IMG/VR virus record: IMGVR_UViG_3300031420_000495
Span: 1 to 64,000 of that record
Source of the DNA: a virus
Taxonomy: Duplodnaviria > Caudoviricetes
Reading direction: 5' to 3' (one strand)
DNA: 64,000 bases
Shown: positions 1,200-36,660 of the stretch, in pieces
How the letters are laid out: each line of letters starts with the position of its first letter
How positions within the stretch are numbered: the first letter of the stretch is position 1
Made by a program: the position numbers and the translations under genes
The notes under the pieces: generated by a model
The model's input: the letters and a program-made list of their open reading frames with translations, nothing else
Database searches by the model: none
Told to the model about the DNA's origin: nothing

Positions 1200-1698
1200 C
1201 TTTGGTCACGTACATTTCGCGACGCAGGTCACGTGGCGAAGTACCTTTTTTCTTTTGCGTACGCTTCGGAAGATCGAAGATGTACTCCGGGATGGAACCA
1301 ACGAAGTGCTTATCAGTCCGCTTGATGGCGTACGTCTCTGCACGGGTTGCTGCGTTCTCGAGGTAGCGCATGTCGACCAGCTCAACGTCCGAGAACTGGG
1401 CACGAACTTTCTGAATGTTGTCGATGGTGAAATCACGCATTTCCGAACGACGCTTGCCTGTCTTCGGATCAATGTCCGTCCAGACTTTCAGCTTGATCGT
1501 CATTGGCTTGCCGTCATACAGCTTGTCCAGCTTCGCCTGTTTCTCTGCCTTGAGACGATCACTTGCCGCCTGCAAAGCTTTCTGGTCTTCAGCTTTCTTC
1601 GCAGCGCGCTTCGCATCCTTCTCGGCACGCGTCATGTTCTTGCTGGTTTTGTTTTCGGCAAGATAGACCTGCTCGACAATTTCTTGAATCAGTTTCAT
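1186..1698 (-). CDS. Basic hypothetical protein with capsid-targeting-like leader (MKLIQEIVE)
   Basis: ATG at 1698 overlaps the gp15 stop (ATGA); the ORF-track start at 1923 lies inside gp15. Confidence 0.6.
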   Translation of the reverse strand: MKLIQEIVEQVYLAENKTSKNMTRAEKDAKRAAKKAEDQKALQAASDRLKAEKQAKLDKLYDGKPMTIKLKVWTDIDPKTGKRRSEMRDFTIDNIQKVRAQFSDVELVDMRYLENAATRAETYAIKRTDKHFVGSIPEYIFDLPKRTQKKKGTSPRDLRREMYVTKDDKK

Positions 1699-2483
1699 GG
1701 CATCTCGTTTGGTTGGGGTGGAATAGGTCCCGCTGGATCGCGGTCGGTAATTTCGATGGTACCGTACGCGTCGCCGAATGGCTGGAGGTTTCCGTCCTCC
1801 CCGACTTCGAGCGTTCCCATCGTGCTGAGGTCGCCAAGCTGAATGATAACCTTGCGGACCAAGTCGTCTTTGACACCCATCGGGATTCCAAGATAGATTG
1901 GCATGATGAAGGACAAAGTCCAAACGATCATGCGACGTTCAGTGCCTGATGGATAGTTCTCTTCGTTGCCGATGTCGGTCAACGTAATGTTGGTGATACG
2001 AGTCCAGTCAAACGGTCCATCCGACTTTTGAATCTGAATGTCCGGGTTGAAGAGAACGAGAATCTGTTCAAGAATTTGATGCATCTGCTGGGTGTTCGAC
2101 GCCCAGATCGAAAGCTCAAGTGTCATATCATACGGCACAGGCATGACGCGTTTGACAACGGTCAAGTCATCCGGAAATATTCCGCCCGTCTTCATTGTAA
2201 CATCTTGACGGACGAATCCCGAGGCACGACGACGTTCATCGTTTGGTGCAAGGCCTGTCATGTACGCAGACATAGTTGGCAGAGAGAAAACGCGGTTCTG
2301 TGTGTTGCCGGACATGATGCCTGCGACGACACGGTCCTTGTTACCGACGACAGTAGGCACGCTGATAAATTCAGGATCGCCGCATTCGCCTACACCGGTC
2401 TGTACTTGCAGTCCGTGGAAAAGCGAAACGAATTGCAGAATGTACGCACGCAGCTGGCCGTGATAAAAGTAATGGTTTATAAT
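1695..2483 (-). CDS. gp15: Tail terminator / tail sheath stabilizer (T4 gp15-like), probable ATT start
   Basis: (M)INHYFYHGQLRAYILQFVSLF...PYDMTLELSIWASN..Q..QILEQIL..FNP...ERRMIVWTLSF..PIYL; GAGGAG at 2497-2492, 8 nt before ATT; in-frame TGA at 2498-2496. Confidence 0.85.
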   Translation of the reverse strand: MINHYFYHGQLRAYILQFVSLFHGLQVQTGVGECGDPEFISVPTVVGNKDRVVAGIMSGNTQNRVFSLPTMSAYMTGLAPNDERRRASGFVRQDVTMKTGGIFPDDLTVVKRVMPVPYDMTLELSIWASNTQQMHQILEQILVLFNPDIQIQKSDGPFDWTRITNITLTDIGNEENYPSGTERRMIVWTLSFIMPIYLGIPMGVKDDLVRKVIIQLGDLSTMGTLEVGEDGNLQPFGDAYGTIEITDRDPAGPIPPQPNEMP

Positions 2484-2507
2484 TTTAGTTTCTCCTCAGA
2501 ATCCAGC

Positions 2508-2513
2508 TATTTA
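2508..2513 (-). promoter_or_regulatory. Late promoter TAAATA upstream of gp15
   Basis: TAAATA 25 nt upstream of the start; same hexamer precedes most structural genes in the window; gp55 homolog present. Confidence 0.7.
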
Positions 2514-3140
2514 TTAGGCAAAGCCGAGTGCTTGCTTCATTTGTTCCTGGTATTCGATTGGGAACGCGTAATAACGATCGCACTTAATCATGATTTCGTT
2601 GTTGGTCTTGACAGCCTGTGCCAGACCATCTGTCTGATAATGCTGTTTGTCAAGCCATGCACGTGCTTCTTCTGTCCATTGCTCTGAGGTCTTATCACCC
2701 CATGGAATATTCATCTTGCCGTACAGGTCACCAACTTCTGGCGACCACACATACTTGAATGCACCGATTGGGAAGACAACGCACGGAGTTCCGTAGTGTT
2801 TCAGTTCCGCAGTCGTTATCCTGTTGCCGCCAGCAAACATGCACTGCGAGCGTGCACGAATGCCGAACTTATCGTTGAACCATTCATCCAGAATTTCAGA
2901 ACGTAGGAGCGTGAAGTCAAGAGGCTTACGATCCTGGCGAACAGTTTTGATTCCATATTCCATCTCATTGCCTTCCGCATCGAGCGCAGTATGCGATTCA
3001 ATATCAGACAGGCCTTTCACACCACGGAGAATGAATCCTCCGTACTCTGATTCTTCGAGGAATTGTTTGCAGTCCCTGCGAATGAGGACTGCAAACGATA
3101 ATGCTTCTTGTTCACTGAGAAATTGCTTAAATGTAATCAT
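2514..3140 (-). CDS. Putative internal head protein, ART-like paralog 2
   Basis: Leader MITFKQFLSE; ILRG...RQDRKPLD...RARSQCMF...YG...VWSP...NEIMI. Confidence 0.55.
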   Translation of the reverse strand: MITFKQFLSEQEALSFAVLIRRDCKQFLEESEYGGFILRGVKGLSDIESHTALDAEGNEMEYGIKTVRQDRKPLDFTLLRSEILDEWFNDKFGIRARSQCMFAGGNRITTAELKHYGTPCVVFPIGAFKYVWSPEVGDLYGKMNIPWGDKTSEQWTEEARAWLDKQHYQTDGLAQAVKTNNEIMIKCDRYYAFPIEYQEQMKQALGFA

Positions 3141-30795: not shown

Positions 30796-31052
30796 TACTC
30801 TTCTCCGCGGTCCATTGAACGTTGGAGTTCGCCGATGTCGTCCTCGATTTTATTCAGACTCTTGACGATGTCATCAACGTAAGAAGCGTCACCGCCTTCA
30901 CGTTCAATTGCATCGCGCAAATTGCCAGTGAAAACCTTTTGCAGGGTTTCGATTTTGCCCATTGCTTCGCGAACACGTGACACAGCACTGGCTTCGTTGA
31001 GTTGTTGCGTTGGCAGACCTGCTGCCTTGAGGGCTTCGTTGAGTGAGAGCAT
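30795..31052 (-). CDS. Small putative internal head protein, shared leader MLSLNEALKAAGLP
   Basis: Leader repeat; start overlaps gp21 stop. Confidence 0.75.
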   Translation of the reverse strand: MLSLNEALKAAGLPTQQLNEASAVSRVREAMGKIETLQKVFTGNLRDAIEREGGDASYVDDIVKSLNKIEDDIGELQRSMDRGEE

Positions 31053-31678
31053 TATTTCTGTTTCCCTTTAGATGCGAGCACGTCCAAGAACGCCTTCATT
31101 TCTTTCTTGAAGTATTCCTGCGCTTTCGGATCGTGGACCATTGCTTCGGCCAGGGTCAGAACCTTGTTATTGTTCATTGCTTCTTGAACAACGTTTGGAT
31201 ACGCGTCAGGAGCCGATGGCTGCGAGACGATGTCGACCGTGACGAAAGCGAAGTCAGCAACCTTGCCCGACTCGTTGACGTTACCGGTACCGCGGGACGA
31301 AACACCGAGACGGACACCGCCTTCGATCAGACCCTTCGCGATGTTGCCTGATGGCGTGTTGAGGAGTTTCATCTTGCCGATTGCATTGTTGCCATCCATG
31401 CGAACTTCAGTAATCGCGTGGGACACGTTTGCCAGGTTGATCGACAGGACGTCCGGGTGATTCAGCTCGCCCAGAATGTAGTGACCTGAAGCGATACGCT
31501 TTGCAGCCTCGTCAACAGCTTTCGAGATTTCGGAAAGTGGATATGAACGGCCGTTGCCGTTCACAAGTTCAGCCTGCATCATGATACCGTTGAGATAAAG
31601 ATCGCCGCTGGCGGTCTTCATCTCTGTCAGGTGGGATTGAGCTGGGCTAAGGTGTTCAGAGAGAAGTTGGAACTTCAT
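31052..31678 (-). CDS. gp21: Prohead core protease
   Basis: YLNGIMMQAE..N.NGRSYP...GELNHP...LLNTPSG.IAK.L...GV.LGVSSRG.G; TATAAATA at 31719-31712. Confidence 0.95.
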   Translation of the reverse strand: MKFQLLSEHLSPAQSHLTEMKTASGDLYLNGIMMQAELVNGNGRSYPLSEISKAVDEAAKRIASGHYILGELNHPDVLSINLANVSHAITEVRMDGNNAIGKMKLLNTPSGNIAKGLIEGGVRLGVSSRGTGNVNESGKVADFAFVTVDIVSQPSAPDAYPNVVQEAMNNNKVLTLAEAMVHDPKAQEYFKKEMKAFLDVLASKGKQK

Positions 31679-31719: not shown

Positions 31720-33420
31720 TCAAGTTGCTGCTGGAGCTGGCGTTTCTGGCGCTGGAGTTGCCGTAGGCGATACGTCATCATCCGCTGCTGCCGGAGCAGT
31801 ATCACCTGCTCCACCAAAGAATCCGCCACCGGTATCAGCCGTGTCGCCCATATCGTCATCGCCTCCCATGTCGTCCATACCACCGCCACTATCCGTGCCG
31901 CTAGCAGTTCCGCCATCAACCGTGATTGCTTCACGGTTGTCGTAAACAGCAGGGTCATACATCTGTTGCAGTGGTGGAACGTTGGCGTTCTCGAGGATGC
32001 CGCGTTCTTCTTTGAGCATGACTTCGTTCATCTGGATTTCGTCGTCGGTCAGGCCGAGGTAACGTTTCTGGATGAAGCGACGGGACAGAGTTTTCTCTGC
32101 AGCAATGTTGTTGTACGAGCTGATCAGGTCGGCGTCAAGCGCTGCCTGACGATACAGTGCGAAGTTAGCTGGGTCAGGAAGTTTGATCTTGAAGATTTCG
32201 TCATCGATCTTCAGGCCAACAACCTTCAAATAAATCTTGAACTCTTCGTCGAAGATTTCGTCCAGGCGATCCTGGAGACGACGAATGAACTGCGCGAAGC
32301 GAAGTTCTTCGATGTACGCGATACCAACCTTGCCGTCGTTGTACTGTGCACCGGCTCCGTCTGTACCTGTCATGTACGAGGTCGGGATACGAAGACCGCG
32401 GAAGATTTTGTCCTGGAACAGTTTGATAAGGCCAGTACCGAAGTCCTCAGTACCGCCCGGCAGAGTTTCTACACGGGAACCGCGACCAGCAGCCGTTACC
32501 GGGAAGAACAGGTCTTCCTGGATTGAGGTTGCATCGTATTGGCCGTCGACAATTTCCTTGCCGTTGTTCTGTCCTGGCGTACGCTTCTGGCGCATCTCAT
32601 TCTTGATCTGCTCCAGGTATTGCTTGACACGCTGTGGTGGCATGTTACCAACGTCGACGTAGAAGACGCGACGTTCAGGTGCACGGACGATACGGTAAAT
32701 GATGACAGCGTCTTCCAGCATAGCCAGCTGGCGGTAGACGCGGTGGATTGGACGCAGGACAGAGTTACCGAACGGAGCCGAGTCGCCCATGTCGTCCGAC
32801 AGCGTGAAGTGAATCATCGCTGCGGCCGGGACGATTTCCAACGTTTCAGTCTTCATGCCGTATCCGCTCGAAGCATTGCCTGGGCGTTTCAAGTGATACG
32901 CAATCTTGTTGCCGAGCTGGTCGATTTCGATACCGTGAACGAGCGACGGGTCGACAGCAGTCCATTGCTTCGTGTCCGACAGCTTGCGGAAGAAACAGTC
33001 GCCGTACTTAATCATCTGGCGCGCGATCGAGAAGATGCGCTTGTTGAATTGCTGGGTGTTCGACCACTGACGAACAGCCTGACGAAGCGTCACGGCAGTT
33101 GTGTCACTGATTTCCTGGTTGTCTTCTTTCTGGTATACAATCTCGAATGGCAGTCCTGTCTTCTCGTCCTTGCCTGACATTTCTTCTGCGATGATGTCAA
33201 GCGAACGGAAAATATCGATGTCCGCGTCCATTGCGTCGTATTGTTTGTACGAAGCCTGACGCGAACCGAGACCACGAAGAACTTGTGAGTACCACTGGAC
33301 TGATGTCATCGATGACAAGTCGGTGGTGCGGGGATCGTATGCATCAATCGACAGCGTCGTGTAAAGTTGCTTACGCGACGCCGGAGTGATGATCCTCCAC
33401 CAATTTGTTAGTTGTGCGAT
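31720..33420 (-). CDS. gp20: Portal vertex protein, probable ATC start
   Basis: YDAMDAD.DI...LDIIAEE...MLEDAVIIYRIVRAPERRVFYVDVGNMP...EDLFFP...GRGSRVETLPGG; reading frame open to 33432 with AAGGAG at 33433-33428. Confidence 0.95.
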   Translation of the reverse strand: MAQLTNWWRIITPASRKQLYTTLSIDAYDPRTTDLSSMTSVQWYSQVLRGLGSRQASYKQYDAMDADIDIFRSLDIIAEEMSGKDEKTGLPFEIVYQKEDNQEISDTTAVTLRQAVRQWSNTQQFNKRIFSIARQMIKYGDCFFRKLSDTKQWTAVDPSLVHGIEIDQLGNKIAYHLKRPGNASSGYGMKTETLEIVPAAAMIHFTLSDDMGDSAPFGNSVLRPIHRVYRQLAMLEDAVIIYRIVRAPERRVFYVDVGNMPPQRVKQYLEQIKNEMRQKRTPGQNNGKEIVDGQYDATSIQEDLFFPVTAAGRGSRVETLPGGTEDFGTGLIKLFQDKIFRGLRIPTSYMTGTDGAGAQYNDGKVGIAYIEELRFAQFIRRLQDRLDEIFDEEFKIYLKVVGLKIDDEIFKIKLPDPANFALYRQAALDADLISSYNNIAAEKTLSRRFIQKRYLGLTDDEIQMNEVMLKEERGILENANVPPLQQMYDPAVYDNREAITVDGGTASGTDSGGGMDDMGGDDDMGDTADTGGGFFGGAGDTAPAAADDDVSPTATPAPETPAPAAT

Positions 33421-33438
33421 GATCGCTCTCCTTTAGCT

Positions 33439-36400
33439 TTATCCTGTATATCGACCGCCTTGGAGCAAATCGAATTTCACTTCATTATTCAATGGAAACA
33501 CTGGACGTCCAGATGCAGCAGCGATGGCAGCAATGCCAACAGCTTGAGCTTGTTCCGATGTCAGCATGCTTGTAAGCACTTGATTCATCGCAACGAGTTG
33601 CGCGATAATCGCGTCATTGCCTGTGGTTGTAGCCGCAGTGGTTGCCGCAGTATTTGCAGCAGCTGCTTGGGTTGCAGCTTGCGTTTCTGGACTATTTACA
33701 GTTGGTTGAGTGACGTTTTTTACAGGAGATGGTGCAGGAGCTGCAATTGTTTGCGCAGTTGAAAGAATATTCGTCGCAATGCCTTGTGTGCTGCTGAGGA
33801 TGCCTGCGTTTGCCGTGTTGATTGTTTGTTGAGCAGCAACAGTCTTATCAGCCTGCGCTTTGGATGCGTTGGCAACTTCTGTCTTCTTGTCGATTTCCTC
33901 TTTGCTCTTCGCACCGATCGAAGCGACGGTCGCTTTGTTGTCGGACAAGAGTTTATCCAGCACACCGTTGCTATCACCTGCAGCCTTTTCGAAATACTCT
34001 GTCGTCTTCTTGCTGAAGCCAGGAATCCAGTCGGTTGCCCAGGCAAACATTTTCAGCAGGCCAGTCTTCAGCATAACGCCAACAACGTTCAGCGCGTTCT
34101 CAACGTGGAGTCCATCGTTAGAGAAGAAGCTGAACAGCCAGTCGACTGCTTTACCAACACCGCCGATGAATCCGTTGAAGATCGCGAACGCAGCGTTACC
34201 AATCATTTCGCCCCAGGTCGCATTGCCACTCGGGTTGAATGCAGCTGTGATTGTGCCTGTGAACAGTTCGCTGACAGCATCCCATATCGCCATCAGAACC
34301 GGAATACGACGGAGCAATCCGCCGATGATGCCACTACCCATTGCGTTGAAGAAACCACCGAATGTGTTGCCAAGAGAACTCAGCCATCCACCGACAGTCG
34401 AGCCGACCGATCCGAAGATGCGGCTAACACCACCCAGTGCTCCAGAGATACTTGGGACAGCTCCGCGAATTGTTGGGATGAGGTTCGAGAACCATCCACC
34501 GACTGTGCTGATTGCGTTCATGACAGTTGGCGCAATGCCTCGCATTGTGGTTGCGAAGTTGCTAAGACCAATGCTGATCCTGTCGAAGATTGACAATGGA
34601 CCAGAGAAGAATCCGCGAACAGTTGCAGCCGCGTTTGAGATGAATGCAGGAACGCCTCGCATCGTAGTTGCGAAGTTGCTGAATGCAATGCTGATTCGGT
34701 CAAAGAGCGAAAGCGTTCCGCTCAACGGTCCGCCGCCGCGGATGAATGCGGACAGACGACTAATTCCGCTTGTCAACATTCCAACTGTACCGGAAATGAT
34801 TCGGCTGAATGTTGGGAAGAGACGCGACAACACACCACCGGCTGCTCCGCCAGCACCGGCACCAGGAACAGCCGCAGGGATGACACGACGAATAACCGCC
34901 GCAGTCAATTCACCGATCAGCCCACCAATTGCGCCAACACCAAGAGCCTTGATGATTGTATTCTTTTCCAGACCTTCAAGCCATGCATTTAGGCGACCCG
35001 TTGCTTTCAGCAGGTCACTTGTGCCTTTTGCAAAGTCTCGATTAACGCCGGCTGGACCAGAGTCAGCGGTCAGTGCAACATTACCTGCCTTCTTTAGAAC
35101 ATCACCGATGCCAGACGAATCAAGTGCAGCCTGCATTTGCTCTGCGATGTTTTCCTGGGCGATGTTGCCAGATTGCATGGCACGCTGCATCGCGGCTTGA
35201 AGTGGGCCTGCAAGTGCTACGACTTCTCGATCCTCGTCAGCAGTGCGAATCTTCCGGCGAGACAGATCAGCAAGACGCGATGTAGCTGCTGGGTCCATGC
35301 CAAACAATGCACCAGCCTGATTGATACGGCCTGCGGCTTCGAAACGTTTCGGTGCGGTAAGGTTACGGGTTGCGATCAGCGCATCGCCAAGAGCATCGGA
35401 CGCAGCTTTCGTCGAACCCATCGAGAGACCGATGGACTTTGTTTGAACCAGTTCATTCAGGCGAGCAGCACGCTGTGCTGGCGCCATACCCAACAGCTGG
35501 GATTGAACGGTCTGATTGGTTGCCAGACTTTCTGTCAGTGCCTGGAATTGTCCAGCAGTCAGCAGCGACGTTTTACGCAGACGTTCGAATGTATCGATCT
35601 GCGCGTTCGTTGCGTCGGTCAGGCGTTCTTGCGGAATGCCGAGTGCAGTTGTTGAACTTGCAAGCGACGCCGAAAGCTTCGTGGCTTCAGCACCGAAGAT
35701 GCCGAGGTTTTCCAGACGATCACGAGAAACCTGAAGCGTCTTATTGAATTCAGCCATCGACCCGGAACGGGTTACGGCAACGCTCGATGCTTGAAGAACG
35801 GCAGTATATTCCCTCAGCGACATGCCGGAGCGAGCAGCATCGATGTACAGCCCACCCAAAGCAGACGATGCTTGAATACCAGCAGATTGCAGGTAAAGAA
35901 TATCTTGTACAACTGGAACGATCGCAGTTGAAAGCGCAACGGTGAAACCGATCAGCGCTTTCGATGCACCACCAAGACGATTTGTCAGGTCGGAGACCGC
36001 ATTGGCCAAACGACCACGCTGTGGCCTTGGACCGAAGTCTGCTGGCCCGTTGATACGCGCATCGGGTCCTCCAACACCGCCACCAATTGGACGAGCAGCT
36101 TCACGTGCATCGCGAATTGCCTGGCCAATCGTTCCAGTGAGTCCTGGTCCCAGGTCACGAAGGAACTTCGGCAGTGCAGCCCATGGATCAGTGTTGTAAC
36201 GTGGACGCGGAGGAGTCGGTGTACGAGGCGGTGTCGGTGGAGCTGGCGGAGCAGCCGGACGCGCTGGCGGTACTGGTGCAGGCGGTGGAGTTGGCGTAGG
36301 TGCAGGCAGTGTCCGTGGCATCGAACGCATGGTTCGATTCATCGAGACGAAGTGACCACGCGTCGAGAAAATCGTTTTGTTCAGGTCATTGAAACCACGG

Positions 36401-36660
36401 TTCAACGTCTGTGTTGAGTTCGTGATTTCCTTCAGCGCAGCAGTTGCCGCACGGAATACTTTCTTTTGGTCGCTCGCATCACGGTCAATTGGTCCACGCG
36501 AACCTCCACGCCGACCGCTTCCGCTGCCAGCGTTTGCTCCACCCGCAACGGTCGGTGCACGGCCAAGACCAGAGGTCACGCTTCCGTTTGCCAGTGCCTT
36601 CTCGATCCGTTTGAGGGTAGCGAGGATGTCGTCTTCAACTGCCATTTTTCGGCTTTCCAT
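33439..36660 (-). CDS. Tape measure protein (gp29-like)
   Basis: 1073 aa Ala/Gly-rich amphipathic helical protein, divergent from gp26/gp51-like genes; start at 36660 or 36645. Confidence 0.75.
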   Translation of the reverse strand: MESRKMAVEDDILATLKRIEKALANGSVTSGLGRAPTVAGGANAGSGSGRRGGSRGPIDRDASDQKKVFRAATAALKEITNSTQTLNRGFNDLNKTIFSTRGHFVSMNRTMRSMPRTLPAPTPTPPPAPVPPARPAAPPAPPTPPRTPTPPRPRYNTDPWAALPKFLRDLGPGLTGTIGQAIRDAREAARPIGGGVGGPDARINGPADFGPRPQRGRLANAVSDLTNRLGGASKALIGFTVALSTAIVPVVQDILYLQSAGIQASSALGGLYIDAARSGMSLREYTAVLQASSVAVTRSGSMAEFNKTLQVSRDRLENLGIFGAEATKLSASLASSTTALGIPQERLTDATNAQIDTFERLRKTSLLTAGQFQALTESLATNQTVQSQLLGMAPAQRAARLNELVQTKSIGLSMGSTKAASDALGDALIATRNLTAPKRFEAAGRINQAGALFGMDPAATSRLADLSRRKIRTADEDREVVALAGPLQAAMQRAMQSGNIAQENIAEQMQAALDSSGIGDVLKKAGNVALTADSGPAGVNRDFAKGTSDLLKATGRLNAWLEGLEKNTIIKALGVGAIGGLIGELTAAVIRRVIPAAVPGAGAGGAAGGVLSRLFPTFSRIISGTVGMLTSGISRLSAFIRGGGPLSGTLSLFDRISIAFSNFATTMRGVPAFISNAAATVRGFFSGPLSIFDRISIGLSNFATTMRGIAPTVMNAISTVGGWFSNLIPTIRGAVPSISGALGGVSRIFGSVGSTVGGWLSSLGNTFGGFFNAMGSGIIGGLLRRIPVLMAIWDAVSELFTGTITAAFNPSGNATWGEMIGNAAFAIFNGFIGGVGKAVDWLFSFFSNDGLHVENALNVVGVMLKTGLLKMFAWATDWIPGFSKKTTEYFEKAAGDSNGVLDKLLSDNKATVASIGAKSKEEIDKKTEVANASKAQADKTVAAQQTINTANAGILSSTQGIATNILSTAQTIAAPAPSPVKNVTQPTVNSPETQAATQAAAANTAATTAATTTGNDAIIAQLVAMNQVLTSMLTSEQAQAVGIAAIAAASGRPVFPLNNEVKFDLLQGGRYTG
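34538..34704. repeat. Internal 117-bp-period (39 aa) duplication in the tape measure gene
   Basis: FDRISIAFSNFATTMRG / FDRISIGLSNFATTMRG; DNA copies begin at 34538 and 34655. Confidence 0.8.

What the first reader, a model, noticed from the sequence alone, without database searches (positions are those of the whole stretch)
33318..33435. Portal gene appears to start at a near-cognate ATC codon
Seen: the portal frame is open 38 codons upstream of the ORF-track TTG, bounded by TAA (33435-33433), with no ATG or GTG in that stretch. A perfect AAGGAG (33433-33428) sits 7 nt before ATC-GCA-CAA (33420), giving (M)AQLTNWWRIITPASRKQLY. Known: AUC/AUU starts are weak and IF3-discriminated (E. coli infC and pcnB use AUU); the portal is needed at only 12 copies per head. 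Inference: deliberate translational down-tuning of a low-copy assembly nucleator. The same pattern at gp15 makes a shared mechanism more plausible than chance.
Basis: partly seen in the sequence, partly recalled or inferred. Interest (0 to 1): 0.8.

Follow-up and report, generated by a model that had tools for sequence, protein, structure and literature searches.

The report
Phage portal gene starts at ATC
The portal gene of this uncultured giant phage really does begin at the weak start codon ATC behind a strong ribosome-binding site. ATC or ATT recurs at the same spot in about a dozen related phages, where gene finders cut 37 residues off the protein. This is a known kind of translational quirk, not a new mechanism.

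Summary
Observation confirmed. The T4-gp20-type portal ORF (minus strand) is open from TAA 33435-33433. It has no ATG/GTG/TTG before TTG 33318, and AAGGAG (33433-33428) lies 7 nt before ATC 33420.

- **Alignment:** the start codon of about 100 homologues, including the ATG of Ralstonia phage RsoM2USA, aligns exactly with this ATC.
- **Not an error:** Logan contigs at 45-50x depth are identical. Two partial contigs from other studies and three related assemblies also carry ATC.
- **The skipped leader is translated:** the 36 codons after the ATC have pN/pS 0.02-0.05 among ATC carriers.
- **Recurrence:** 12 of 65 distinct relatives carry ATC or ATT here (at least 7 state changes on the tree), all inside one subclade. 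Two neighbouring genes start almost always at ATG.
- **SD strength:** ATC/ATT carriers have stronger SDs (10/12 versus 7/53). This suggests a balanced, modest initiation rate rather than simple down-tuning.
- **Other genes:** gp15 (ATT 2483-2481) is a second verified case in this genome. An ATA-start lipoprotein is a probable third.
- **Phage factors:** no phage IF3 or IF1 and no initiator-like tRNA(GAU) were found.

The kind is known (infC, pcnB), and this scan has noted similar starts in other phages. "Deliberate down-tuning" is plausible but not shown.

The parts
33418..33420 (-). ATC initiation codon of the portal gene
   Evidence: Aligns with the start codon of homologues (ATG in RsoM2USA). 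At this position 65 IMG/VR relatives have ATG 44, GTG 8, TTG 7, ATT 4, ATC 2. It is retained in L006, L147, L148 and in contigs X1-X4.
33428..33433 (-). Shine-Dalgarno AAGGAG, 7 nt before the ATC
   Evidence: Read. Duplex energy with the anti-SD is -8.7 kcal/mol. The median at first canonical starts in this genome is -4.0, and only 13% reach -7 or lower.
33421..33423 (-). Second in-frame ATC, 4 nt after the SD; a possible minor alternative start, not conserved
   Evidence: relatives have CTC, ACC or AAA here.
33433..33435 (-). In-frame TAA that closes the portal frame upstream; it overlaps the SD
31720..33420 (-). Portal protein CDS (T4 gp20 family), 566 codons plus stop
   Evidence: PF07230 E 1.2e-85; tblastn to jumbo-phage portals starting at query residue 1.
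33310..33417 (-). 36-codon N-terminal segment that is lost when the gene is called from TTG 33318 or ATG 33309
   Evidence: Conserved in about 100 homologues. pN/pS is 0.02-0.05 among ATC carriers at pS 0.38-0.74. Variants in X3 and X4 are synonymous.
33439..36660 (-). Upstream 1073-aa ORF (tape-measure-like, phrog_58). Its stop is 18 nt before the ATC, so it is probably co-transcribed and possibly translationally coupled.
   Evidence: No terminator-like site on the minus strand between the genes.
31052..31678 (-). Prohead protease (Peptidase_S77) downstream of the portal; used as the control gene with an ATG start
   Evidence: The start is ATG in about 59 of 61 relatives.
1695..2483 (-). gp15 tail sheath stabiliser CDS starting at ATT 2483-2481; second near-cognate start in the genome
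   Evidence: PF16724 E 1.3e-38 from residue 5. The RsoM2USA ATG aligns with the ATT. 50 of 56 relatives have ATG at that codon, and the closest (L088) has ATC. Leader pN/pS is 0.09.
2491..2497 (-). Shine-Dalgarno GAGGAGA, 7 nt before the gp15 ATT
   Evidence: duplex energy -9.2 kcal/mol.

Best explanation
The portal protein is translated from ATC 33420-33418. I infer the following mechanism. The host 30S subunit is held by a strong, optimally spaced SD (AAGGAG, 7-nt spacer). The host initiator fMet-tRNA pairs with AUC through a third-position mismatch, so the protein begins Met-Ala-Gln-Leu like its homologues.

The gene follows the upstream 1073-aa ORF by 18 nt with no terminator between them. 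Some initiation may therefore come from ribosomes that have just terminated there.

Across this subclade of jumbo phages the portal start site varies between ATG, GTG, TTG, ATT and ATC, and the weak codons travel with strong SDs. The most likely function is to hold portal synthesis at a modest level suited to a 12-copy assembly initiator. Codon and SD act as two interchangeable dials.

Shown: the start position, the genuineness of the ATC, translation of the leader, recurrence in relatives, specificity to the portal among its neighbours, and the SD association. Inferred: decoding as Met, low output, coupling, and any adaptive value.

Sub-confidences: about 0.9 that ATC 33420 is the start; about 0.5 that the arrangement is selected for expression level rather than merely tolerated.
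For: - **Homology fixes the start.** RsoM2USA begins MGTLTNYYRIV.. with its ATG on the window's ATC. About 100 metagenomic homologues begin M[AS]Q[LF].N[YFW]W[RK]IITPASRKQLY.
- **No other start is available.** Between TAA 33435 and the conserved residues only AGG AGA GCG ATC ATC exist.
- **Not an error.** Logan contigs of two runs at depth 45-50 are identical. Two partial contigs from other studies differ at 5 sites each, but not at 33418-33420. Assemblies L006, L147 and L148 carry ATC in diverged contexts.
- **The leader is translated.** pN/pS is 0.02-0.05 among ATC carriers, for example 17 synonymous and 0 non-synonymous differences between L006 and L147.
- **Recurrence.** 12 of 65 distinct relatives have ATC or ATT, with at least 7 state changes on the tree, all within one subclade.
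- **SD association.** SD dG is -7 or lower in 10/12 ATC/ATT carriers versus 7/53 others. Means are -8.2 versus -5.2 kcal/mol, Mann-Whitney p 2.5e-4.
- **Gene specificity.** The neighbouring protease and the 292-aa ORF start almost always at ATG.
- **Second case.** gp15 behaves the same way.
- **Literature.** AUC, AUU, AUA and CUG initiate at 1-2% of AUG in E. coli, and AUC gives N-terminal Met (bioRxiv 10.1101/063800). AUU is 6-8x weaker than AUG, and with a 20-nt gap about 40% of second-cistron initiation is reinitiation (PMC3592434).
Against: - There is no protein, ribosome-profiling or transcript evidence. The phage is uncultured and its host unknown.
- The SD association is not significant once phylogeny is respected: 5 independent pairs, none in the opposite direction, median sign-test p 0.125.
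- Most relatives use ATG, so a weak codon is not required for a working portal gene.
- Persistence of ATC over pS 0.4-0.7 in four taxa is also what a neutral third base would often give.
- The distance to the upstream stop varies among ATC/ATT carriers (1-18 nt), so coupling is not a conserved feature.
- The neighbouring ATC 33423 cannot be excluded as an additional start in this one genome.
Confidence: 0.8

Rival explanations
1. The ATC start is real but has no adaptive role. Portal expression is under loose constraint in this subclade, so ATG drifts to GTG, TTG, ATT or ATC. Only variants that already have, or soon gain, a strong SD survive.
For: 20 start-codon changes on a 63-row tree. Near-identical portal proteins L015, L016 and L022 carry ATT, GTG and ATG behind unrelated upstream sequence. 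ATG remains the majority state. The SD association is weak under independent contrasts.
Against: The lability is specific to the portal; the neighbouring protease and 292-aa ORF stay ATG. ATC and its SD persist across pS 0.4-0.7. The second verified case, gp15, is also a low-copy virion protein (about 6 per virion, from general T4 knowledge).
Confidence: 0.35
2. The weak codons make portal and gp15 translation sensitive to IF3 availability. The genes are held back until late infection, when IF3 becomes limiting, as in infC autoregulation. This would be a timing device rather than a level setter.
For: Only by analogy: IF3 discriminates against AUU and AUC, and infC uses this (literature cited). 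Both verified genes are late structural genes.
Against: No data on IF3 during infection. No phage IF3 or IF1 homologue in the 257 kb held. Most relatives manage with ATG.
Confidence: 0.1
3. Translation starts downstream at TTG 33318 or ATG 33309. The 5' stretch would then be an untranslated leader, and the portal would be N-terminally shorter than in relatives.
For: These are the first canonical codons, and public gene calls of close relatives start at the corresponding ATG (P0003, P0008, P0019, P0023).
Against: There is no SD before either codon (dG +0.3). The skipped 36 codons are conserved in about 100 homologues and under strong purifying selection in the ATC carriers themselves. The truncated calls are explained by callers that do not allow ATC or ATT and sometimes miss TTG.
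Confidence: 0.03
4. Sequencing or assembly error: the true codon is ATG.
For: ATC is one base from ATG, and the record is a metagenome assembly.
Against: An independent assembler gives the same base at word depth 45-50 in two runs. Two other studies' contigs and assemblies L006, L147 and L148 carry ATC amid many synonymous differences. X1 and X2 may be the source samples, but the others are not.
Confidence: 0.01
5. A phage-encoded initiator-like tRNA with anticodon GAU reads AUC and AUU as a private start codon.
For: The genome carries two tRNA-Ile(GAT) genes and 29 tRNAs in all. This scan has noted private-start-codon tRNAs in other phages (unchecked notes).
Against: Neither tRNA-Ile nor the tRNA-Met(CAT) has initiator hallmarks. 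Position 1:72 is paired, and no GGG/CCC run closes the anticodon stem. The third candidate start in this genome is ATA, which GAU would not read. The record is only about 71% complete, so absence is not proven.
Confidence: 0.02
6. The portal is made as a read-through fusion with the upstream 1073-aa ORF, which lies in the same frame.
For: The two ORFs are in frame, separated only by TAA AGC TAA. L006 has the same arrangement.
Against: Two TAA stops lie in tandem. Other ATC/ATT carriers have gaps of 1 or 11 nt, so their frames differ. A well-placed SD would be pointless for read-through.
Confidence: 0.01

Closest known systems
E. coli pcnB (poly(A) polymerase I), AUU start that limits translation (Binns and Masters 2002, cited in PMC3592434)
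   Same: A near-cognate AUH codon is the sole start of a protein needed in small amounts. The codon is a constitutive limiter rather than a switch.
   Different: This is a phage structural gene with AUC rather than AUU. It sits behind a much stronger SD and shows repeated gains and losses among relatives. Nothing has been measured here.
E. coli infC (IF3), AUU start with IF3 autoregulation; also ATT in Xanthomonas infC (PMC5559785)
   Same: A conserved near-cognate start close behind the preceding cistron's stop. IF3 discrimination is the presumed reason the codon is weak.
   Different: infC is a feedback loop on the discriminating factor itself. No such logic is evident for a portal protein, and IF3 dependence is untested here.
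Other phage genes with AUU, AUC or AUA starts noted by this scan (terminase, portal and holin of a 64-kb phage; tail genes; a capsid gene; phAPEC8 RNase H)
   Same: A strong SD plus an AUH codon where homologues have ATG. The pattern recurs in relatives, and gene callers truncate the protein.
   Different: Those are other phage groups, and the notes are AI notes that I did not check. This case adds the SD-strength association and the neighbouring-gene controls in a T4-like jumbo-phage clade.
T4 gp20 portal and its jumbo-phage homologues (RsoM2USA, XacN1, RAS14, PA5oct)
   Same: Same protein family and head-module order: large upstream ORF, portal, prohead protease, scaffold-like ORF, gp23 capsid. 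The N-terminus is conserved.
   Different: All cultured homologues that I inspected start at ATG.

Membership tests
T4-like portal protein (gp20, PF07230) | Profile match above the curated cut-off over the whole domain | tested here: met
   PF07230 E 1.2e-85, 288 bits against a cut-off of 22.9; residues 55-472 on profile positions 2-433 of 433.
T4-like portal protein (gp20, PF07230) | Position in a T4-type head module next to the prohead protease and the gp23 capsid gene | tested here: met
   Peptidase_S77 lies at 31052-31678 and Gp23 at 27532-28845 on the same strand.
Near-cognate (AUH) bacterial initiation codon, infC/pcnB type | Conserved, selected coding sequence extends upstream of every canonical start codon, up to an in-frame stop | tested here: met
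   36 conserved codons with pN/pS 0.02-0.05 and no ATG/GTG/TTG back to TAA 33435.
Near-cognate (AUH) bacterial initiation codon, infC/pcnB type | The AUH codon aligns with the start codon of homologues and has an SD at working distance | tested here: met
   for the alignment; AAGGAG with a 7-nt spacer, dG -8.7 kcal/mol.
Near-cognate (AUH) bacterial initiation codon, infC/pcnB type | The protein N-terminus maps to the codon and carries (f)Met | not testable with these tools
   Uncultured phage with no proteomics. PA5oct has virion MS data, but its portal starts at ATG.
Near-cognate (AUH) bacterial initiation codon, infC/pcnB type | Reduced, IF3-sensitive initiation relative to AUG | not testable with these tools
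   Only literature values for E. coli are available.
Phage-encoded private initiator tRNA | A tRNA whose anticodon matches the odd start codon | tested here: met
   Two tRNA-Ile(GAT) genes in the phage tRNA array.
Phage-encoded private initiator tRNA | Initiator hallmarks: unpaired 1:72 and three G:C pairs closing the anticodon stem | tested here: not met
   Both tRNA-Ile and the tRNA-Met have a paired C1:G72. Their anticodon stems are CTCGC/GCGAG, CTGGA/TCCAG and CCACC/GGTGT.
T4 gp15 tail sheath stabiliser (PF16724), the companion case | Profile match above the cut-off that includes the segment upstream of the first canonical start | tested here: met
   PF16724 E 1.3e-38; the match starts at residue 5 of the ATT-initiated protein, whereas the first canonical start (GTG 2360) is codon 42.

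The most novel reading that the evidence does not exclude
In this jumbo-phage subclade, start-codon identity and SD strength at the portal gene, and at gp15 in this lineage, form a co-evolving two-dial rheostat. It sets the dose, and possibly through IF3 sensitivity the timing, of low-copy assembly initiators. Weak AUH starts in phage structural genes would then be a selected stoichiometry device rather than annotation noise.
Probability: 0.3. Interest if true: 0.6.

Novelty: new member of a known kind. Interest (0 to 1): 0.4.

Why it matters
**Annotation.** Gene callers that allow only ATG, GTG and TTG cut 37 conserved N-terminal residues off this portal protein. They also cut 41 residues off gp15, and the same happens in many relatives already in public protein collections. 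Six of the seven distinct truncated calls whose DNA I could read lack an ATG at the true start. Structure prediction, family profiles and assembly models built on such calls are wrong at the N-terminus.

**Biology.** The case adds a well-controlled example of near-cognate starts in phages: independent assemblies, purifying selection on the leader, neighbouring-gene controls, and an association with SD strength. It shows such starts can be stable and gene-specific.

**What it enables.** It gives a concrete system for asking whether virion stoichiometry is set partly at initiation. It does not reveal a new mechanism.

Tried and rejected
- **Assembly error:** rejected from the laid contigs and independent assemblies.
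- **Downstream TTG or ATG start:** rejected by conservation and pN/pS of the leader and by the missing SD.
- **Read-through fusion with the in-frame upstream ORF:** rejected because of tandem TAA stops and a non-conserved frame.
- **Phage initiator-like tRNA(GAU):** the tRNAs lack initiator features.
- **Phage-encoded IF3, IF1 or peptide deformylase:** none found in the 257 kb held, which is about 71% complete.
- **RNA structure around the start:** a 100-nt fold is no more stable than shuffles, z -0.65. No promoter or terminator of note lies between the upstream ORF and the portal on the minus strand.
- **Genome-wide habit:** a crude scan of 319 ORFs found only the portal, gp15 and one ATA candidate with a strong SD plus AUH upstream of an SD-less canonical start. 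This is not a general feature of the genome.
- **Phylogeny-corrected test of the SD association:** underpowered, with 5 independent pairs and p about 0.125.
- **Relatives of the ATA-start lipoprotein:** only 4 distant hits that do not cover the N-terminus.
- **Literature:** searches for near-cognate starts in phage portal or structural genes found nothing specific. The T4 genome review (PMC150520) is not held.
- **Protease control:** direct extrapolation of residue 1 failed because N-terminal lengths vary. I read the ATG by eye from the printed flanks, so the figure of about 59 of 61 is approximate.

Full report
**What is in the sequence.** All coordinates are on the minus strand.
- A 1073-aa ORF ends at TAA 33441-33439.
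- In the same frame follow AGC, then TAA 33435-33433, then AGG AGA GCG ATC(33423) ATC(33420) GCA CAA CTA.
- The frame stays open into a 532-codon ORF whose first canonical start is TTG 33318, followed by ATG 33309.
- AAGGAG occupies 33433-33428, 7 nt before ATC 33420.
- From the ATC, the protein is 566 residues and matches Portal_T4 (PF07230) at E 1.2e-85.
- The surroundings form a T4-type head module: a tape-measure-like ORF (phrog_58), the portal, prohead protease S77, small ORFs, a 292-aa ORF and the gp23 capsid gene.
- The window is the first 64 kb of a 257-kb IMG/VR record that is about 71% complete and has 29 tRNA genes. Its relatives are jumbo phages of 290-380 kb.

**Where the protein starts.**
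- tblastn against phage genomes aligns from query residue 1, the ATC codon, in RsoM2USA, RAS14, CM1 and the PA5oct group.
- In RsoM2USA the annotated ATG lies exactly on the window's ATC. The sequences that follow are clearly homologous: MGTLTNYYRIVQPASPKQAYTT against (I)AQLTNWWRIITPASRKQLYTT.
- Most of the 120 best metagenomic homologues begin M[AS]Q[LF].N[YFW]W[RK]IITPASRKQLY, with the first residue on that codon.
- Between the in-frame TAA and these conserved residues there are only five codons, and none is canonical. The start must therefore be one of the two ATC codons. Only 33420 is conserved; relatives have CTC, ACC or AAA at the other.

**Not an error, and the leader is translated.**
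- Logan contigs of two phyllosphere runs cover the region at word depth 45-50 without a difference. These runs may be the source samples.
- Short contigs from two other studies cover 33303-33569 with five differences each, none at 33418-33420. Those inside the leader are synonymous: CCG to CCA, and CTT to TTG.
- Independent assemblies L006, L147 and L148 (96% protein identity) carry ATC in diverged contexts.
- Over the 36 codons after the start, ATC carriers differ by 10-20 synonymous and 0-3 non-synonymous changes. This gives pS 0.38-0.74 and pN/pS 0.02-0.05.

The segment is therefore translated in the very lineages that lack a canonical start, and the ATC has persisted for a long time.

**Recurrence and specificity.**
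- In 65 IMG/VR relatives the homologous codon is ATG 44, GTG 8, TTG 7, ATT 4 and ATC 2.
- Eight database proteins of close relatives that begin 37 residues late were traced to their contigs; DNA was returned for seven. These gave ATC in 3, ATT in 2 and TTG in 2.
- On a tree of 65 rows, 12 carry ATC or ATT, with at least 7 state changes. All sit in one subclade in which the start codon changes often: 20 codon changes on the 63-row tree.
- As controls, the neighbouring prohead protease starts at ATG in about 59 of 61 distinct relatives (2 GTG), and the 292-aa ORF in 30 of 30.

The lability belongs to the portal gene among the genes I tested, not to the region.

**Association with the ribosome-binding site.**
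- Every ATC/ATT carrier has a GGAG-core SD ((A/C)GGAGA in most) 6-7 nt before the start.
- Duplex energy with the anti-SD averages -8.2 kcal/mol in ATC/ATT carriers. It is -5.2 for ATG and -6.2 for GTG/TTG (Mann-Whitney p 2.5e-4, not corrected for relatedness).
- With the added contigs, 10/12 ATC/ATT carriers against 7/53 others reach -7 or lower. In 5 phylogenetically independent pairs the SD is stronger in the ATC/ATT member in about 4 and never weaker, but so few pairs cannot reach significance (p about 0.125).

I read this as compensation. A weak codon with a strong SD and a strong codon with a weak SD are alternative ways to reach a similar, modest initiation rate.

**The rest of the genome.**
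- A crude scan of 319 ORFs for a strong SD plus ATT, ATC, ATA or CTG upstream of an SD-less first canonical start singled out three genes.
- The second is gp15, the T4 tail sheath stabiliser (PF16724, E 1.3e-38). It has ATT 2483-2481, with GAGGAGA 7 nt upstream and 41 codons before the first canonical GTG.
  - The RsoM2USA ATG aligns with the ATT, and 50 of 56 relatives have ATG at that codon (three more have it one codon upstream).
  - The closest relative, L088, comes from the same metagenome as L006 and has ATC.
  - The gp15 leader has pN/pS 0.09.
- The third lies outside the window at G000 150633-150631. It is an ATA 6 nt after AAGGAGA. It would give MRTYIAAVALAAATLTGC, a lipoprotein signal with a lipobox, on a glycine-zipper protein (PF05433). 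The first TTG would remove the signal peptide. No relatives cover the N-terminus, so this one is inferred only.

Near-cognate starts therefore make up roughly 1% of genes here, and each sits behind AGGAGA.

**Mechanism.**
- I found no phage IF3, IF1 or deformylase.
- The phage tRNA-Met(CAT) and the two tRNA-Ile(GAT) lack initiator hallmarks.
- The start region has no unusual RNA structure (z -0.65), and no terminator separates it from the upstream ORF.
- The simplest mechanism is therefore ordinary 30S initiation with the host initiator tRNA mispaired at the third codon base. It is made possible by the strong SD and perhaps helped by ribosomes terminating 18 nt upstream.
- In E. coli, AUC, AUU, AUA and CUG give 1-2% of AUG output, and AUC yields N-terminal Met (bioRxiv 10.1101/063800). 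In another system AUU is 6-8 times weaker than AUG, and about 40% of initiation on a cistron 20 nt downstream comes from reinitiation (PMC3592434).
- Whether output is low in this host is not known.

**Interpretation and novelty.**
- The functional claim, deliberate down-tuning of a 12-copy nucleator, is plausible. The weak starts are specific to the portal among its neighbours, and the second verified case is another low-copy virion protein.
- That claim is not demonstrated. Most relatives use ATG, the SD evidence points to balancing rather than reduction, and neutral tolerance remains a serious rival.
- The kind is known. E. coli infC and pcnB use AUU, pcnB explicitly to limit translation (references). 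Xanthomonas infC uses ATT (PMC5559785).
- This scan has already noted AUH starts in several other phages (AI notes that I did not check).
- I found no paper describing near-cognate starts of phage portal genes.
- I therefore file it as a new member of a known kind. It has practical value for annotation and moderate biological interest.

Noticed in passing
G000 150361-150633, minus strand (outside the window; held as L155:165-434): A probable third near-cognate start: ATA 6 nt after AAGGAGA. It would give a lipoprotein signal peptide with lipobox LTGC on a 90-aa glycine-zipper protein (PF05433). The first canonical TTG would delete the signal peptide.
   Followed up: partly
Proteins P0003, P0008, P0019, P0023, P0024, P0026, P0028, P0031; loci L147-L154: Public gene calls of close relatives start 37 residues late, at MT[ST]V.WY. 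Of the 8 calls traced to contigs, 7 returned DNA: ATC in 3, ATT in 2 and TTG in 2 at the true start. This is systematic N-terminal truncation of portal proteins in databases.
   Followed up: yes
L015, L016, L022 (portal loci, start near position 3001 or 357): Nearly identical portal proteins (branch lengths 0-0.03) start with ATT, GTG and ATG behind unrelated upstream sequences. This suggests recombination breakpoints right at the gene junction.
   Followed up: no
Proteins P0081, P0082, P0097, P0105, P0109, P0118: Several portal homologues are 936-950 aa and carry an intein-splicing domain (PF14890), so some relatives have intein-interrupted portal genes. The window's portal has none.
   Followed up: no
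G000 220397-220481, minus strand: An 85-nt tRNA called Ile(GAT) has a long variable arm and C at position 33 of the anticodon loop, beside a normal 74-nt tRNA-Ile(GAT). It is odd, but it lacks initiator features. The tRNA array is the subject of other notes of this scan.
   Followed up: partly
window 33433-33441, minus strand; L006 near 2975-3000: The upstream 1073-aa ORF and the portal are in the same frame, separated by TAA AGC TAA. The same arrangement occurs in L006. The second TAA overlaps the SD.
   Followed up: partly
window 2505-2516, minus strand: AATAAATA, resembling the T4 late-promoter motif TATAAATA, overlaps the stop of the preceding ORF about 24 nt before the gp15 ATT. No such motif precedes the portal start.
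   Followed up: no
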